Source of the DNA: an uncultured Alphaproteobacteria bacterium
GTDB lineage: Bacteria > Pseudomonadota > Alphaproteobacteria > Acetobacterales > Acetobacteraceae
Reading direction: 5' to 3'
Length of the DNA stretch: 64,000 bases
Assembly (NCBI GenBank): GCA_963696195.1
Contig: OY968826.1
Location: 2,829,101-2,893,100, forward strand
The notes beneath the pieces were generated by a model. The model was not told the origin of the DNA. It saw only the letters and a program-made list of their open reading frames with translations, and did no database searches. The position numbers and the translations under genes are program-made. Shown here in pieces: positions 56,712 through 62,177 of the stretch. Positions within the stretch are counted from its first letter, which is position 1; every line of letters begins with the position of its first letter.

Positions 56712-56788
56712 GCACCCGTAGCTCAACTGGATAGAGCACCAGACTACGAATCTGGGGGTTAGGGGTTCGACTCCCTTCGGGTGCGCCA
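56712..56788 (+). tRNA. tRNA-Arg (ACG)
   Basis: GCACCCG acceptor stem / CGGGTGC-G-CCA, anticodon arm CCAGA-CT-ACG-AA-TCTGG, GTTCGA T-loop. Confidence 0.96.
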
Positions 56789-57012: not shown

Positions 57013-57870
57013 ATGCTCCCACCCACGTCGATCTTCCGCCGGATGCCCGGCACCCTGGTCCTCTCCCAACGGCGGTTTCTTGGCGCCCTGGCCTACGCGA
57101 GCGACTGCACGGAACTCTCGTTCGAGAGGCTGAAGCAGGCCGCGCGTGCCTACCGCTTGCCCACCTCCGCCGACGGTTACGAAGAGGCTGGGTGGACGCC
57201 GGTGAACCGGCTCAGCATCATCACCGATGCTTGGGCCTGCGTCGATCACCTCAACCGCGCGCGGCAACTTGTGAAGAGGTCCCCGTATGGCAACCCGCGA
57301 CCGCTAGAGGTTGATCCGTTCCTCGCCGCGACGAAGCCCGCCTTGGACATCAGGAACCGGATTCAGCACCTCGACGAGGACATCTTCACCGGCGCGAATT
57401 GCGCCGAAGGGAATCCGGTGCTGGGCGCAGTGTCTTGGGCGGACGCCCGCATCCTTGGGGGTCACCTTCGGTACTCAATTTCATCTGGCCCATCAATCGA
57501 CGGCGGACGCATGGCCGGTACGCAGCTCGCCGATGTGGACGGTGCCGGTGACGTCCTGGACTTCGCGCTCAAGGCGGCGGATCAGACCATACATCTGGAC
57601 GAGACCGTGAAAGCTCTGGCCGCCTTCATGGCCGCGTTCGAGGTGACTGTGGCGCGCGCGGTCACTTCGGGTCTTCGCGAAGCCGCGACACGGCAGGGGG
57701 TGTCGCTCCAAGAACCCCGCCCCCATGGAATCACGGACATGACGATGGCAATGAGGATGAGGCGGAAAGCAGAGGGTGGCTGGGAGTGCGGCAACGGCGA
57801 TGGCTTCGCCTTGGTCGAGGTACCACCCGGTTCTTTCGACATCAGCGAAGCGACCGATGAAGTAGCCTGA
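57013..57870 (+). CDS. Hypothetical protein with HEPN-like Rx4H motif (start uncertain: 56815/56986/57013)
   Basis: Helical N-half with RNRIQH at 57352-57369; GAGGT RBS before ATG 57013. Confidence 0.6.
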   Translation: MLPPTSIFRRMPGTLVLSQRRFLGALAYASDCTELSFERLKQAARAYRLPTSADGYEEAGWTPVNRLSIITDAWACVDHLNRARQLVKRSPYGNPRPLEVDPFLAATKPALDIRNRIQHLDEDIFTGANCAEGNPVLGAVSWADARILGGHLRYSISSGPSIDGGRMAGTQLADVDGAGDVLDFALKAADQTIHLDETVKALAAFMAAFEVTVARAVTSGLREAATRQGVSLQEPRPHGITDMTMAMRMRRKAEGGWECGNGDGFALVEVPPGSFDISEATDEVA

Positions 57871-57882
57871 TGGCTCGGCAGG

Positions 57883-58764
57883 TCAGGTAGTAGGGTTCTC
57901 CTGCAACGCAGCCGAAGCGGAGATCGCCGCAAGCACCCTGGCGAGCGCTTCCGCGAAAGGCCTCGGTGCACCTCCGGGCTCTTCGTCTTCCCAACCGCCC
58001 CGCGCCAGATTCCGGGCGCTCGCGACGGTATGCCGGAGTTGGGCCAATTTCAGGCGGAGATCGAGGAAAGGGTCCCACGCTGCTTCCCGGGTCACCGCCT
58101 CCGGGAATGCCTCCTCTCCGAACGGGTCGTCGGGGTCGTAGGGGTCTTCTTCGAGCCGCTCGGAATTCCGCGCGGTGTAGTCGGTGCGCAAGGCTCTGTG
58201 AGAGGACAGTTGCGCTGCGGCCTCAAGAACTGCATCTGCGCGCAACGCCAGTTGGGTCCCGAACTCTCTTCTCGCCGAGAGCGCCTCGACATGGGCGCCG
58301 ATCACGGTTTCCACTTCGGCCTTCCGGTACATGATCTCCGCACCACTGAAGCGAAGAACCGGGAGACCAGTCTGCACGCGGATCGTTCGTTCGCGCTCAC
58401 GATCTGCTCTGATCTGCTCTGCGTTCTCGGCGTGCCCAATTCGACCGTCACACTCCACGAAGAATGCGAAGCCGGAGAGCTGTGTTACCCCACGAACAGC
58501 GCCAGGGTCGGCACAGACCACCATGAAATCGATTCGGTACTGGCCCACCCAGACTTGTGGGAAGACGATCAACTGGCTGCGAAGGATTACAGCAGGCTCC
58601 TCGGCCATGCCGGTGAGCGCCTCCCGCCAGCCAGGAGCGCGGGCGAACAGCGCGCGGGTGTTCGTACCTGGGCCTCCTTCCAGAATCCGGGCCAAGAGGT
58701 CTTCGGCGGGCGATTCCAGAAGGAGACCTACTGGTGACCATCTTGAGAGAAGTTCGAGACCCAT
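57883..58764 (-). CDS. DUF559/Vsr-like PD-(D/E)xK endonuclease-domain protein with helical C-terminal extension
   Basis: ESPAE, PQVWVGQYRIDF, FVECDG..H, DRERER, VLRFSGAEI. Confidence 0.78.
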   Translation of the reverse strand: MGLELLSRWSPVGLLLESPAEDLLARILEGGPGTNTRALFARAPGWREALTGMAEEPAVILRSQLIVFPQVWVGQYRIDFMVVCADPGAVRGVTQLSGFAFFVECDGRIGHAENAEQIRADRERERTIRVQTGLPVLRFSGAEIMYRKAEVETVIGAHVEALSARREFGTQLALRADAVLEAAAQLSSHRALRTDYTARNSERLEEDPYDPDDPFGEEAFPEAVTREAAWDPFLDLRLKLAQLRHTVASARNLARGGWEDEEPGGAPRPFAEALARVLAAISASAALQENPTT

Positions 58765-58899
58765 TGGAATCCTTGTCGACGCGAGGAAAATCAGAAGCGG
58801 GTGAGTGTCGAACCTAGAGCCGAACCTTCGAGTCGCCTATTCCTCTTTCTGGTTGGTCACTTCCGGACCGAAGACGGCTTGTGGAATTCTTCTCGTTGC

Positions 58900-59169
58900 T
58901 CAACCGGGCTTCCGCCGCTTCCGCCCCGCCGGCAGCGACGGCGGGGCATCGCCCTCCGGCCCGGGGTCGGCGAACAGCGCCGCGATCTCCACGCCCAGCG
59001 CCGCCGCTATCCGCTCCAGCACAGTGACGGTGGGGTTCTCCAGCTTCCTCTCGATCCGGCTCATGTAGGTCCGGTCAACCCCGGCGTCGACGGCGAACGT
59101 CTCCTGCGAGACGCCGCGCGCGACGCGCAGCCGCCTGATGTTCACCGCAACTTTTTCCCGCGCGTCCAT
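58900..59169 (-). CDS. XRE-family HTH transcriptional regulator
   Basis: NIRRLRVARGVSQETFA..VDRTYMSRIER..NPTVTVLERIAAAL. Confidence 0.92.
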   Translation of the reverse strand: MDAREKVAVNIRRLRVARGVSQETFAVDAGVDRTYMSRIERKLENPTVTVLERIAAALGVEIAALFADPGPEGDAPPSLPAGRKRRKPG

Positions 59170-59179
59170 GACGGAGCGA

Positions 59180-59217
59180 GCACATATTGTGCAGGCCTAT
59201 TATTCCACGCATAATAG
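59180..59217. promoter_or_regulatory. Two palindromes in the 52-bp divergent intergenic region
   Basis: GCACA-TAT-TGTGC (59180-59192) and CTATTAT-N7-ATAATAG (59197-59217). Confidence 0.55.
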
Positions 59218-59221
59218 ACCC

Positions 59222-59542
59222 ATGATTACGTGGAACGGCACAGAAATCGGAACCTGGCACTGGTGGATGGCGGTATTGGCCGCGGCATGCACCACGATTC
59301 CGCCGGCCGCCCGCCTCGCGGGGCTGGCAGCGCTCGGCGTCCTGCTGGGGCTCCTCCCCGCGAACCGGCTGCTCACGCGCCTGGGACTGCGGCGCTGGCG
59401 GCTGGCTGCGCTGTTCCTGCCCGGCATCGGGCCGCTCGTCTTCATGTGGCTGGTCGCGTTCTCCGGCGCCCACGACCAAGACGCTCCCGATACCGAACGC
59501 GATGGAAGCGACCTCGGCATGTTGCCCCAGCAGCAGGGCTGA
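59222..59542 (+). CDS. Small hypothetical membrane protein
   Basis: 106 aa, three hydrophobic segments, LFLPGIGPLVFMWLVAF, acidic tail. Confidence 0.55.
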   Translation: MITWNGTEIGTWHWWMAVLAAACTTIPPAARLAGLAALGVLLGLLPANRLLTRLGLRRWRLAALFLPGIGPLVFMWLVAFSGAHDQDAPDTERDGSDLGMLPQQQG

Positions 59543-59610
59543 CGCGGCGAGGAAAAAACGAGGGCGCCCCAACGGCGCACCGGGCGGAGATGCCCAGCGC
59601 GCCGCTTCGA

Positions 59611-59871
59611 TTACATTGCCGGCAATGGCCCGCCGGCCAGCCACGCCCACATGGCCCAGACGCCGGCGGCGGTGAGGATGACGTCGAGTTGGGGGGCAAG
59701 ATGCAGCTCGATCTCGGCGCCGAGCAGCGCCATGGCCGGCGGCAGCATCAGGACGATTTTCACGATGGTCGGCAGGCGGCGCCAGAGGCGCGAGGTCACT
59801 GACCCGGCGGGCGCTGGTACGCCACTCCGCGGACGCACCTCGGTGGCAGCAGACTTTTTCTCTTTCTTCAT
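59611..59871 (-). CDS. Small hypothetical two-TM protein
   Basis: Basic N-terminus MKKEKK then two hydrophobic helices. Confidence 0.45.
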   Translation of the reverse strand: MKKEKKSAATEVRPRSGVPAPAGSVTSRLWRRLPTIVKIVLMLPPAMALLGAEIELHLAPQLDVILTAAGVWAMWAWLAGGPLPAM

Positions 59872-59993
59872 AGTGGTTCCTTTCAAAATAGAGCGTCAGA
59901 ATGTCACTGGAGATCAGAATCAAGCATCCACAGGTCGATTCTTTCTTGACCCGCGGGGACGGGAGCTGTACGTAATTTTGACCTCAAGATCAC

Positions 59994-60374
59994 ATGGAGG
60001 ATCTTGAGAAGAAATTTCTGAGATTTTTTATGGCAGCAGTCACTGATGAGAAAATTCACGAAGTCGCACGAACACTCTGGATGGACGTCTATGAGGACGA
60101 GTTCCGCGGCAAGGAGCGAGGGCGATTTTGTCTCACCCGCCGACAACTCATGGACGCGCTGGGCACGACGCGCCTGCACGCGAGCGCCATCCAGCGCTTG
60201 CAGGATGAGGCGCTGGGGCTGGGTCTCGTGATCATCGATCTCGACGATCTCTTCCCGTGCGTCGAGGTCCGAGTTGCGCGCAGATACCGTAGGCCACCAG
60301 CCGAGGTGTTTTTGAGGCACTTTCCAGGACCGGCGGAGGAGCACGCCGGCGAAGGTGACGACGACGAGCCGTGA
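59994..60374 (+). CDS. Hypothetical protein (possible DNA-binding), acidic tail
   Basis: 126-aa ORF with realistic composition, GKERGRFCLTRRQL, LVIIDLDD; convergent on int. Confidence 0.6.
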   Translation: MEDLEKKFLRFFMAAVTDEKIHEVARTLWMDVYEDEFRGKERGRFCLTRRQLMDALGTTRLHASAIQRLQDEALGLGLVIIDLDDLFPCVEVRVARRYRRPPAEVFLRHFPGPAEEHAGEGDDDEP

Positions 60375-60414
60375 CGCAGGCTCTCCGCGTGCCGTAGCCC
60401 GAGCATCTTTGCTA

Positions 60415-60446
60415 GGTGGGGAAGGCGCTTTGGCGCCTTCCCCACC
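60415..60446. terminator. Perfect 14-bp hairpin between convergent ORF and integrase
   Basis: GGTGGGGAAGGCGC-TTTG-GCGCCTTCCCCACC; no clear U-tract. Confidence 0.6.
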
Positions 60447-60477
60447 TTCGTGCTGGCGGCGCTTCCGACCGCCCTCT

Positions 60478-61761
60478 TCACGCCGCGTTCTGCACCTGCA
60501 CCTCCACCACCTCGGGCTCGGGTAGCAGGTTCCATGCCCGCAGCGCGATCGTTGCGGTATCGATCAGCCGCTGCGGGGCATGGTGCGCGTACCTCTGGGT
60601 CGTCGAGAGCTGGCTGTGACCCAGAACCGTTCCGATCTCGTTCAGCGGCGTGCCGGCGTTGGCCAGCGCGGACGCGAACGAGTGCCTCAAATCGTGGATG
60701 CGCAGGTCCTCGGGCAGTCCCGCCGCCTCCCTCGCCCGCCGCCACGCGCCGCGTATCCCCTCCACCGCCCTGTCCGGCCGGCGGGCGCTGGGGAAGACGT
60801 ACGGGTTGCCCGGGTGGAGCTGACGCTTGGCGAGCTGGCGCTGGAGGATCGTCACGGCCAGGGCCGAGAGCGGTACGTGCCGCGTGCGGCCGGACTTGGA
60901 CCGGGGCACGGTGAGCAGCCCGCGCTCCAGGTCCACGTTCTCCCACTTCGCCTTCAGCGCCTCGCCCCGGCGGGCGCCGGTGACGGCGAGCAGCATCAGC
61001 ACCGACGCGGCGGTCTCGTCCGGGTCGGCGGCCAGCGCGCGGAAGAGCGCCTGGGTCTCAGGCGCGCTCAGGTACTTGTCCCGGTGGACCTCGCGCAGCA
61101 TCCCGGGCGAGCTCGCCGGGTTCTTGCCCGCGTACAACTCCCATTTCGTTGCGAGATTGAACATCGCCCGCAACGTCGCCAAGTGCCGGTTGACCGTGCC
61201 GTTCGCCAAGCCCTCCGCCACCATCCTGCGCCGCAGCTCAGCGACATCTTGCGGTGTCACCTCGTCCAACGCCTTCTTGCCCAGGGCGGGCAGGATGCGC
61301 TTGCGCAGGTAGGCCTCGACGTTGTGCGCGGCGCGCTGAGTCTCGCGCGCGTGCGGCAGATATCGATCCTTGGCGAATTCATTGAGCGTAGGCACGGCCT
61401 TGAGCTTTGCCTTCTCCGCCGCCGGGTCGCCGCCCAGGCTGACCTCGGCCTTGAGCTGCTCGGCGCGCTTGCGGGCCTGGTCGACGGTGACGTCGCCCAG
61501 CCGGCCGAGCCGGACTTCGTGCTGGCGGCCGCGGGCATCCTTGTACCGGAAGTAGAACGTTACGGTGGTCCGGCGCTGCTCGGCGATGAAGCCGACCAGC
61601 CGGTCGTCGAAGAGACGGTGCTTGGCTGCGCCCGCCGACAGCGGGGGCAGCTTCTGCAATAGCGTGCGGGTGAGTGTGATGGCGGCCATTTGGCTCCTCT
61701 GCTGGGTGGTGCTGGTTGGATTGGAATTGGGCGTGGGGGTCATAGGGGGCATCGGCCGCAC
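60478..61761 (-). CDS. int: Tyrosine integrase with N-terminal arm-binding domain (true start may be 61682)
   Basis: LFDDRLVGF..FYFRY..VRLG (arm-binding), TGARRGE, HDLRHS, LGHSQLSTTQRY. Confidence 0.95.
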   Translation of the reverse strand: MRPMPPMTPTPNSNPTSTTQQRSQMAAITLTRTLLQKLPPLSAGAAKHRLFDDRLVGFIAEQRRTTVTFYFRYKDARGRQHEVRLGRLGDVTVDQARKRAEQLKAEVSLGGDPAAEKAKLKAVPTLNEFAKDRYLPHARETQRAAHNVEAYLRKRILPALGKKALDEVTPQDVAELRRRMVAEGLANGTVNRHLATLRAMFNLATKWELYAGKNPASSPGMLREVHRDKYLSAPETQALFRALAADPDETAASVLMLLAVTGARRGEALKAKWENVDLERGLLTVPRSKSGRTRHVPLSALAVTILQRQLAKRQLHPGNPYVFPSARRPDRAVEGIRGAWRRAREAAGLPEDLRIHDLRHSFASALANAGTPLNEIGTVLGHSQLSTTQRYAHHAPQRLIDTATIALRAWNLLPEPEVVEVQVQNAA

Positions 61762-61775
61762 CCGGGGCGCGGCGC

Positions 61776-62012
61776 CTACCCCGCCGTGCTGTGGCGGCGG
61801 TTCATCAGGATGAATGCGTCCAAGTCCTCGTTCCGGTACCGGACGTACTTTTCGGAGAGCTTGACGTAGGCTGGCCCTTCGCCCGTGCCGCGCCAGCGCT
61901 CCAGGAAGCTGGGCGGGACGTTCAAGCGCTCGGCGGCTTGCTGCGCGGTCAGCAGCGGCTGACGCTCTTGGGTTTCGGCGGTGGTGTCATCGGCATTGCT
62001 TTGCTGGGTCAT
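61776..62012 (-). CDS. Excisionase/AlpA-like HTH (HTH_17 type)
   Basis: LLTAQQAAERLNV..LERWR..GEGPAYVKL..VRY..DLDAF; directly upstream of int. Confidence 0.85.
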   Translation of the reverse strand: MTQQSNADDTTAETQERQPLLTAQQAAERLNVPPSFLERWRGTGEGPAYVKLSEKYVRYRNEDLDAFILMNRRHSTAG

Positions 62013-62177
62013 GCTGGGTCTCCACGTTCGGGCGCCGGTGGCGGTCATGCCCCGGCTTCGCCCATGGAAATGTTCGGTGGCCGTCCTTGGCCGTCGAAGG
62101 TCGTGCTTCGCCCGCCGTCGCCGGCACCACGCGGACAGCCGGACGGGCCAAAGCCCATCCGGCGCGTTGGCGATTCT

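What the first reader, a model, noticed from the sequence alone, without database searches (positions are those of the whole stretch)
57013..58764. Convergent HEPN-motif protein and DUF559-like nuclease: candidate anti-phage pair
Seen: first island gene has a helical N-half with RNRIQH (Rx4H) and an unassigned beta-rich C-half; it converges, 12 bp apart, on a PD-(D/E)xK DUF559/Vsr-like nuclease with an extra ~130-aa helical tail. Established: Rx4H is the HEPN RNase motif used by many abortive-infection effectors, and tRNA-integrated islands are defence hotspots. I recognise no named system here. Inference: one or two undescribed defence genes (RNase plus DNase). Rx4H is short and can occur by chance.
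Basis: partly seen in the sequence, partly recalled or inferred. Interest (0 to 1): 0.65.

Follow-up and report, generated by a model that had tools for sequence, protein, structure and literature searches.

The report
Two unrelated nuclease-like island cargo genes
Two converging genes at the edge of a 15-kb mobile island are independent cargo rather than a working pair: one founds a large unannotated protein family carrying the active-site signature of HEPN RNases, and the other is a Vsr/DUF559-type DNA endonuclease with a helical tail.

Summary
Gene A (57013-57870, +, 285 aa) and gene B (57883-58764, -, 293 aa) converge 12 bp apart, just inside a ~15-kb element integrated at tRNA-Arg(ACG). 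The element is bounded by an identical 27-nt repeat.

The "pair" reading fails. Outside this genome, no fetched locus holds relatives of both genes. A occurs in 2 of 37 genomes of the genus and B in 1 of 37. Sister islands have A followed directly by the XRE gene, without B.

Gene A has no match in Pfam, NCBIfam, PHROGs or PADLOC, and no Foldseek match despite a confident model (pLDDT 87). It belongs to a family of about 990 clusters. Across 134 members (mean identity 23%), W74, R114 and G138 are invariant, and H119 is kept in 131. Position 115 is always N, H, D or Q. [quoted passage not shown] A HEPN fold is not demonstrated.

Gene B is a DUF559/MTES_1575 Vsr-like endonuclease. Its best structural match is 3hrl, its D...ExDG...H motif is intact, and it has a conserved helical tail of unknown role.

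Both are solitary, patchily distributed cargo genes. A defence role is plausible but untested.

The parts
56712..56788 (+). tRNA-Arg(ACG), the integration target
   Evidence: ARAGORN
56762..56788 (+). attL core: the 27-nt 3' end of the tRNA. An identical copy (attR) lies 14,964 bp downstream, outside the window (genome 2900826-2900852, equivalent to window position ~71726).
   Evidence: Pattern search of the window's own genome
57013..57870 (+). Gene A, 285 aa. Member of a large unannotated family and a candidate HEPN-like RNase.
   Evidence: ORF and start codon; 38 close homologs; 991 representative clusters at E<=1e-3; no Pfam, PADLOC, PHROG or NCBIfam hit; AF2 pLDDT 87; no Foldseek hit
57244..57258 (+). 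Codons D78-H-L-N-R82 of gene A, in predicted helix 2. This is the counterpart of the HEPN Ex3[KR] acidic motif. The invariant W74 lies 4 residues upstream.
   Evidence: D78 in 127/134, R82 in 81/134, W74 in 134/134; helix 63-88; motif definition in PMC3710099
57352..57369 (+). Codons R114-N-R-I-Q-H119 of gene A: the Rx4H motif, at the end of predicted helix 3
   Evidence: R in 134/134, H in 131/134, position 115 N/H/D/Q only; helix 108-117 ends inside the motif
57883..58764 (-). Gene B, 293 aa: Vsr/DUF559/MTES_1575-like endonuclease plus a helical tail
58300..58716 (-). Gene B residues 17-155: the DUF559-like nuclease core. Conserved residues are E-helix ESPAE, R77xD79F, E104-C-D106-G-x3-H111, D121xxR124E125 and LRFSG.
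   Evidence: Alignment A2; Pfam stretch 64-151; Foldseek hits 3hrl and I-Bth0305I
57886..58299 (-). Gene B residues 156-293: helical tail with conserved HRALRxDYTxRNS and PYDxxDPFGE motifs, function unknown
   Evidence: Alignment A2; AF2 helices 148-186, 232-260 and 270-289; no family hit
58900..59169 (-). XRE-type HTH protein (89 aa). It is part of the island backbone and is also present in sister islands that lack gene B.
   Evidence: Pfam HTH_3 1e-12; PADLOC 'control protein' 3e-15; orthologue in L001/L019
60478..61761 (-). Tyrosine integrase of the island
   Evidence: Pfam Phage_integrase 7e-36 and Arm-DNA-bind_3
61776..62048 (-). HTH_17 excisionase-like gene
   Evidence: Pfam HTH_17 2e-9

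Best explanation
Genes A and B are two independent, single-gene cargo modules. They lie in the variable slot between attL and the integrase of a ~15-kb integrative island at tRNA-Arg(ACG).

Gene A belongs to a large, previously unannotated family of 230-290-aa proteins. I infer it is a HEPN-like, metal-independent endoribonuclease. In this reading, H119 and R114 (end of helix 3), N115 and D78 (helix 2) form the active site. A conserved beta-rich module with invariant G138 and G159, inserted between helices 3 and 4, would act as a substrate-binding or regulatory (sensor) part.

Gene B is a Vsr-fold (DUF559/MTES_1575-type) Mg-dependent DNA endonuclease with an intact D79 / E104-x-D106 / H111 site. 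A ~140-aa coiled helical tail probably mediates oligomerisation or target recognition.

Each gene most likely acts alone as a conflict (defence or toxin-like) gene carried by mobile elements.

Shown: gene anatomy, motif conservation, lack of linkage between A and B, island borders and accessory distribution. Inferred: RNase and DNase activity, the sensor role and the defence role.
For: Independence of the two genes:
- No locus outside this genome has both A and B.
- A is in 2 of 37 congeneric genomes and B in 1 of 37; G431 has A without B.
- Sister islands share the backbone but carry different cargo between A and the integrase.
- No conserved neighbour of A was found in 10 loci or in 37 metagenomic loci of a distant subfamily.

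Gene A:
- 991 representative clusters match at E<=1e-3.
- W74, R114 and G138 are invariant; H119 is kept in 131/134, D78 in 127/134, and position 115 is N/H/D/Q only.
- hhalign against HEPN_Apea aligns exactly the LRNxxQHL segment to RNxxxH.

Gene B:
- 19 of 22 family members hit MTES_1575 and DUF559.
- Foldseek finds 3hrl (prob 1.0) and the homing endonuclease I-Bth0305I.
- The catalytic residues are at least 90% conserved.

Context:
- The island also carries a Type IIG R-M enzyme (PADLOC E=0).
- A B homolog sits beside CBASS genes.
- Distant A-like genes sit beside Eco57I-type MTase plus Mrr, a DEAD/ResIII helicase, and a PLD-like gene.
Against: No homology or fold link from A to any known HEPN family was found:
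- Pfam on 27 and 90 members gave nothing consistent. The only HEPN trace was one HEPN_Apea hit at E 0.099.
- PDB profile searches were empty.
- Foldseek against PDB and BFVD gave a best E of 0.2-0.5 despite a pLDDT 87 model.
- hhalign against HEPN_Apea, Abi_2 and PF05168 was not significant.

A ~75-residue beta insert between helices 3 and 4 is unusual for HEPN. The acidic motif is Dx3R rather than Ex3[KR], and R82 is present in only 60% of members. I could not inspect model coordinates, so the four-helix packing is unverified.

B scores below Pfam gathering thresholds. Neither protein hits PADLOC. Several A-like genes sit among housekeeping genes.
Confidence: 0.5

Rival explanations
1. One reading: A (RNase) and B (DNase) form one two-gene anti-phage system and act together.
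For: The genes are adjacent and converge 12 bp apart. There is a precedent for HEPN and MTES_1575-type Vsr REase domains in a single polypeptide, MTES_1575 itself (PMC3710099).
Against: The genes are convergent, so they are not an operon. No co-occurrence was found in any other locus or genome. Sister islands have A without B at the same site.
Confidence: 0.04
2. Gene A is not a HEPN RNase. It has a new fold, and its conserved W/D/R/N/H/G residues form a different site, such as ligand or nucleotide binding, another phosphotransfer chemistry, or a protein-interaction surface serving the mobile element.
For: The confident model has no Foldseek match. There is no profile link to HEPN. The beta-rich insert, with invariant G138 and G159, is as conserved as the motif.
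Against: The position-specific agreement with the HEPN signature is hard to attribute to chance: R, then only N/H/D/Q, then x3, then H, at the end of a helix, plus an upstream acidic residue in the preceding long helix. Known HEPN families also failed to find each other in the same hhalign test, so the negative result carries little weight.
Confidence: 0.3
3. Gene B is a selfish, homing-type or otherwise mobile endonuclease gene, or a decaying remnant, rather than a defence gene.
For: It is present at this site but absent from sister islands, and it occupies a different site in another sister island. Its second-best structural match is the homing endonuclease I-Bth0305I. One homolog (L012) is frameshifted. 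It often lies near transposases.
Against: The full-length protein, including the tail, is conserved at 40-83% identity over 22 clusters. No intron, intein or target-site context was seen. One homolog neighbours CBASS.
Confidence: 0.2
4. Gene A is the toxin of a toxin-antitoxin pair whose antitoxin (a small protein or an RNA) was not recognised.
For: Many HEPN proteins are TA toxins (PMC3710099). Small unannotated ORFs flank several homologs.
Against: No neighbouring ORF is conserved across 10 plus 37 loci. In this window the upstream 224 bp holds no separate ORF of at least 50 aa, and the downstream neighbour is B.
Confidence: 0.08

Closest known systems
HEPN superfamily RNases, especially solitary Abi-type members (AbiD/F = Abi_2, AbiU2, AbiV, HEPN_Apea, Swt1 clade) and Csx1, which has a beta-hairpin after the motif
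   Same: A strictly conserved R-[N/H/D]-x3-H sits at the end of a helix and the start of the following loop. An upstream conserved acidic residue (D78x3R82) lies in the preceding long helix. The core is helical. The genes are solitary, patchily distributed and carried by mobile elements.
   Different: No detectable sequence, profile or Foldseek similarity to any HEPN family. A conserved ~75-aa beta-rich module with invariant G138 and G159 separates helix 3 from the putative helix 4. The acidic residue is Asp rather than Glu. W74 is invariant. Close relatives have an extra C-terminal beta region.
DUF559 (PF04480) / REase_MTES_1575 (PF18741) Vsr-fold endonucleases; PDB 3hrl (NGO0050); E. coli Vsr; the homing endonuclease I-Bth0305I
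   Same: The motif order is the same: (S/T)xxE helix, RxDF strand, ExDG...H, D..RE, LRF. Foldseek gives 3hrl at prob 1.0 and TMt 0.70. 19 of 22 family members hit both Pfam models.
   Different: Scores are below the gathering thresholds (25.8 vs 38.2 bits; 14.2 vs 20.6). There is a ~30-aa insert after the first helix. A conserved ~140-aa helical tail has its own motifs (HRALRxDYTxRNS, PYDxxDPFGE) that match no family. No partner cytosine methyltransferase is adjacent, unlike Vsr.
P4-like / tRNA-integrated defence islands with variable cargo hotspots
   Same: A tyrosine integrase with an Arm-binding domain, an HTH_17 excisionase, an AAA_25 replication-type protein and tRNA 3'-end direct repeats. 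Sister elements keep the backbone and swap cargo. The cargo includes a Type IIG R-M enzyme.
   Different: The integrase is about 3.7 kb from attL rather than adjacent to it, with the cargo slot lying between them.

Membership tests
HEPN superfamily (gene A) | Conserved Rx4-6H motif | tested here: met
   R114 in 134/134 and H119 in 131/134 homologs at 23% mean identity
HEPN superfamily (gene A) | Residue after the R is polar, mostly N, D or H (PMC3710099) | tested here: met
   Position 115: N 110, H 13, D 10, Q 1 of 134; definition read
HEPN superfamily (gene A) | [quoted passage not shown] | tested here: met
   AF2/DSSP helix 108-117 ends inside R114-H119 and is followed by non-helical residues. 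This rests on a predicted model only.
HEPN superfamily (gene A) | Second conserved acidic residue in helix 2, typically Ex3[KR] | tested here: inconclusive
   D78 (127/134) followed by R82 (81/134) in helix 63-88. It is Asp rather than Glu, and its spatial proximity to the motif could not be checked.
HEPN superfamily (gene A) | Four-helix up-down bundle superposable on solved HEPN domains | tested here: inconclusive
   Foldseek against PDB and BFVD found no HEPN hit (best E 0.2-0.5).
HEPN superfamily (gene A) | Profile-level homology to a recognised HEPN family | tested here: inconclusive
   Pfam on 27 and 90 members gave no consistent hit. hhalign against HEPN_Apea aligned only the motif (P 0.08). 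hhalign against Abi_2 and PF05168 was not significant, but the control pairs Apea/Abi_2/PF05168 did not find each other either.
HEPN superfamily (gene A) | Metal-independent RNase activity leaving a 2',3'-cyclic phosphate | not testable with these tools
   Needs biochemistry
DUF559 / MTES_1575 Vsr-fold endonuclease (gene B) | Match to the family HMM above the curated cut-off | tested here: not met
   MTES_1575 25.8 bits vs 38.2; DUF559 14.2 vs 20.6. However, 19 of 22 family members hit both models weakly.
DUF559 / MTES_1575 Vsr-fold endonuclease (gene B) | Vsr-like fold | tested here: met
   Foldseek: 3hrl at prob 1.00, TMt 0.70; I-Bth0305I at prob 0.69. PDB profile hit to 3hrl at E 0.045.
DUF559 / MTES_1575 Vsr-fold endonuclease (gene B) | Catalytic D ... 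ExDG ... H residues conserved | tested here: met
   D79, E104, D106, G107 and H111 are at least 90% conserved in 22 sequences
Two-gene defence system (A plus B) | Conserved co-occurrence or adjacency of the two genes | tested here: not met
   No other locus holds both. Genus survey: A 2/37, B 1/37.
Any named defence system (PADLOC-DB 2.0) | HMM match to a component | tested here: not met
   No hit for A or B. 90 A-family members gave only scattered hits at E>0.004.
Type II toxin-antitoxin (gene A as toxin) | Conserved adjacent small partner gene | tested here: not met
   Neighbour clustering in 10 and 37 loci found none

The most novel reading that the evidence does not exclude
Gene A represents a widespread family (~1000 clusters at 50% identity) of HEPN-derived RNases that no database has yet named. 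A conserved beta-rich module has been inserted between catalytic helix 3 and helix 4. The family would work as single-polypeptide abortive-infection or toxin genes, with the insert acting as a built-in sensor or gate.
Probability: 0.3. Interest if true: 0.6.

Novelty: new variant of a known kind. Interest (0 to 1): 0.45.

Why it matters
If gene A is a HEPN-type RNase, about a thousand sequence clusters currently labelled "hypothetical protein", with no Pfam, NCBIfam, PHROG or PADLOC model, would gain a testable activity. HEPN would gain an architecture with a large conserved insert next to the active site, which is useful for understanding how solitary Abi-type RNases are kept silent and then triggered.

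Gene B adds a tailed subfamily to the poorly understood solitary DUF559 nucleases.

Showing that the two genes are not a pair prevents a false "system" from entering defence catalogues. It also illustrates that adjacency in an island's cargo slot is weak evidence for functional coupling.

Tried and rejected
1. Family scans. Pfam, PADLOC, PHROGs and NCBIfam scans of A, of 27 close members and of 90 diverse members gave no consistent family. One member hit HEPN_Apea at E 0.099, and two members hit Cas13a/b at E~0.01. These are motif-level hints only.

2. Solved structures. PDB sequence-profile searches with A1 and A3 found nothing.

3. Fold searches. Foldseek of the A model against PDB and BFVD found nothing below E 0.2.

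4. Profile-profile comparison. hhalign of A-family profiles against HEPN_Apea, Abi_2 and PF05168 alignments built from genome hits was not significant. The known HEPN families were not significant against each other either, so I rejected this as a usable test.

Viral-contig scans with A1 and A7 found no relatives.

6. Apparent fusion. A 692-aa ORF in L111 looked like a fusion, but its N-terminal 450 aa has no family match and reads like an antisense-frame artefact. The true start is the usual MIIRKNSPFRR.

7. XRE gene. I considered the XRE gene as a C-protein-like controller of B. I rejected this because it is island backbone, present without B in sister islands and absent next to other B homologs.

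8. Promoter and terminator scan: none found.

9. Expression check.

Full report
**Observation**

The two ORFs exist as described. Gene A is 57013-57870 (+), 285 aa. Its ATG start gives MLPPTSIFR, the N-terminus shared by most homologs. Gene B is 57883-58764 (-), 293 aa. The two stop codons are 12 bp apart.

tRNA-Arg(ACG) lies at 56712-56788. Its last 27 nt recur identically 14,964 bp downstream in the genome, outside the window. Both genes therefore lie just inside attL of a ~15-kb integrative element.

The element contains an XRE HTH gene (58900-59169), a tyrosine integrase (60478-61761) and an HTH_17 excisionase-like gene (61776-62048). Beyond the window it has an AAA_25 protein and a 1127-aa Type IIG restriction-modification enzyme next to attR (PADLOC E=0). 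Base composition of the island does not stand out.

**The two genes are not a pair**

- Close homologs of A (80% identity) sit at the same leuB-tRNA site in metagenomic contigs and a MAG. There they are followed directly by the XRE gene, and B is absent.
- Other A homologs lie in unrelated places: next to a capsid-protease fusion in an integrase-bearing element of Sphingomonas segetis, near an RND efflux operon plus an integrase, and next to coaBC/dut. None has a B homolog nearby.
- B homologs lie elsewhere in a sister island (beside a DUF1835/DUF3658 gene), beside a CBASS operon (patatin, DncV-like, E2/ThiF) and Tn genes, near IS elements and a HEPN_LA2681 gene, and next to a PKS gene. None has an A homolog nearby.
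- tblastn of both proteins against every fetched locus confirms that only the window's own genome has both.
- Among 37 genomes of the same genus, A occurs in 2 and B in 1. The second A-carrying genome lacks B.
- With the broad family profile, only 1 of 401 genomes sampled across the phylum (the window's own) has a match.
- DNA comparison shows that sister islands share the backbone (A, XRE, a 91-aa ORF, integrase, excisionase and upstream genes) but differ in what lies between A and the integrase. This is a variable cargo slot.

**Gene A**

- Gene A has no hit in Pfam, PADLOC, PHROGs or NCBIfam.
- The word-index search found 38 relatives.
- The exhaustive profile search found 991 representative clusters at E<=1e-3 and 318 at E<=1e-10. 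Most are 230-290 aa.
- In 134 full-length members with mean pairwise identity 23%, conservation is as follows:

| Residue | Kept in (of 134) |
|---|---|
| W74 | 134 |
| R114 | 134 |
| G138 | 134 |
| H119 | 131 |
| G159 | 131 |
| D78 | 127 |
| P12 | 126 |

- Position 115 is N (110), H (13), D (10) or Q (1).
- The DED triplet after the His is specific to the close subfamily.
- A single Rx4H is expected about 0.4 times by chance in this protein. The protein's other Rx4H (146-151) is not conserved, which serves as an internal control.

The AF2 model is confident (pLDDT 87, pTM 0.85). It has helices 17-45, 63-88 and 100-117, beta strands in 139-194, a long helix 195-228, and beta strands in 236-275.

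The HEPN survey (PMC3710099, read) states four things:
- the residue after R is usually N, D or H;
- a second acidic residue, often Ex3[KR], lies in helix 2;
- inserts are common, with Csx1 carrying a beta-hairpin right after the motif.

Gene A matches each sequence and topology criterion. R114-H119 ends helix 3, position 115 is N/H/D, and D78x3R82 is in helix 2.

No homology or fold link to HEPN could be shown:
- Foldseek against PDB and BFVD returned nothing better than E 0.2.
- PDB profile searches were empty.
- Pfam on 27 and 90 members gave only one HEPN_Apea hit, at E 0.099.
- hhalign against a HEPN_Apea alignment aligned only the motif segment (P 0.08).
- hhalign against Abi_2 and PF05168 was not significant. 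The three known HEPN families did not detect each other under the same conditions either, so this test lacks power.

I therefore file A as "works like a HEPN RNase (inferred), membership unproven".

No neighbouring gene is conserved, in 10 loci of close and distant relatives or in 37 metagenomic loci of a distant subfamily. Annotated neighbours of distant members include an Eco57I-type methylase plus Mrr endonuclease, a DEAD/ResIII helicase, a PLD-like protein and AAA_14/DUF4143 ATPases. They also include NADH dehydrogenase and amine oxidase genes. This is suggestive of defence islands but is not a statistical enrichment. No relatives were found in IMG/VR with two query sets.

**Gene B**

- The family is small, with 22 clusters found.
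- 19 of the 22 members hit both MTES_1575 and DUF559 below threshold.
- The alignment shows the full DUF559/Vsr motif series: ESxAE helix, RxDF, ECDGxxxH, DxxRE and LRFSG. The catalytic residues are at least 90% conserved.
- The AF2 model (pLDDT 82) matches the DUF559 structure 3hrl (prob 1.0, TMt 0.70) and the Vsr-like homing endonuclease I-Bth0305I.
- Residues 156-293 form long helices with conserved motifs (HRALRxDYTxRNS, PYDxxDPFGE) that match nothing known.
- The MTES_1575 REase domain was originally defined in a giant protein that also contains a HEPN domain (PMC3710099). That is a conceptual precedent for combining RNase and DNase, but it is not evidence that A and B cooperate here.

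**Mechanism (inferred)**

A is a solitary HEPN-like endoRNase. Its conserved beta insert, next to the active site, binds substrate or gates activity. B is a Mg-dependent Vsr-fold DNA endonuclease whose tail mediates assembly or targeting. Both are accessory cargo of mobile elements. A conflict role (abortive infection, restriction or toxin) is the most likely, but no functional data exist.

**Verdict**

The main value lies in the large unannotated family with a HEPN-type catalytic signature. I rate the novelty as a new variant of a known kind, with interest 0.45.

Noticed in passing
L017:10816-14199 (-), equivalent to window position ~67415-70798, outside the window: The island's attR-proximal cargo is a 1127-aa Type IIG restriction-modification enzyme (PADLOC REase_MTase_IIG E=0, 1282 bits; Pfam N6_Mtase plus Type_ISP_C). 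An AAA_25 protein lies at L017:8721-10103 (+).
   Followed up: partly
window 57878-60417 compared with L001 6866-10133 and L019: Sister islands at the same tRNA-Arg site keep the backbone at 75-80% nt identity. Between gene A and the integrase they carry different cargo (EcsC-like, a 166-aa ORF, DUF4268) in place of gene B and the 134-aa and 126-aa ORFs. This is a cargo-swapping hotspot.
   Followed up: partly
L011:1535-5583: A 58%-identical homolog of gene B lies immediately downstream of a CBASS-like operon (patatin, DncV-like NTase, E2/ThiF) and upstream of TniB/transposase genes.
   Followed up: no
L012:6001-6808: The gene B homolog here is split by a frameshift: residues 1-215 and 214-270 are in different frames. 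It appears to be a pseudogene among IS fragments, near a HEPN_LA2681 gene.
   Followed up: no
L008:3842-6825 (Sphingomonas segetis): A 43%-identical gene A homolog directly follows a 660-aa Peptidase_S78 plus Phage_capsid_4 fusion gene in a small integrase-bearing element. This may be a phage satellite-like element carrying the gene as a moron.
   Followed up: no
window 59611-59886 (-): A 91-aa ORF with no family match is conserved (76% nt) in all three sister islands (L001, L019, L009). It is therefore backbone rather than cargo.
   Followed up: no
window 60414-60447: A perfect 15-bp inverted repeat with a 4-nt loop lies just downstream of the integrase stop codon (terminator-like, without a T-run).
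   Followed up: no
L029:6272-8648: A distant gene A relative (P0099) lies 44 bp downstream of, and co-directional with, an AAA_14/DUF4143 ATPase. The contig also encodes eIF-1a, so it is probably archaeal, and the family may extend beyond bacteria.
   Followed up: no
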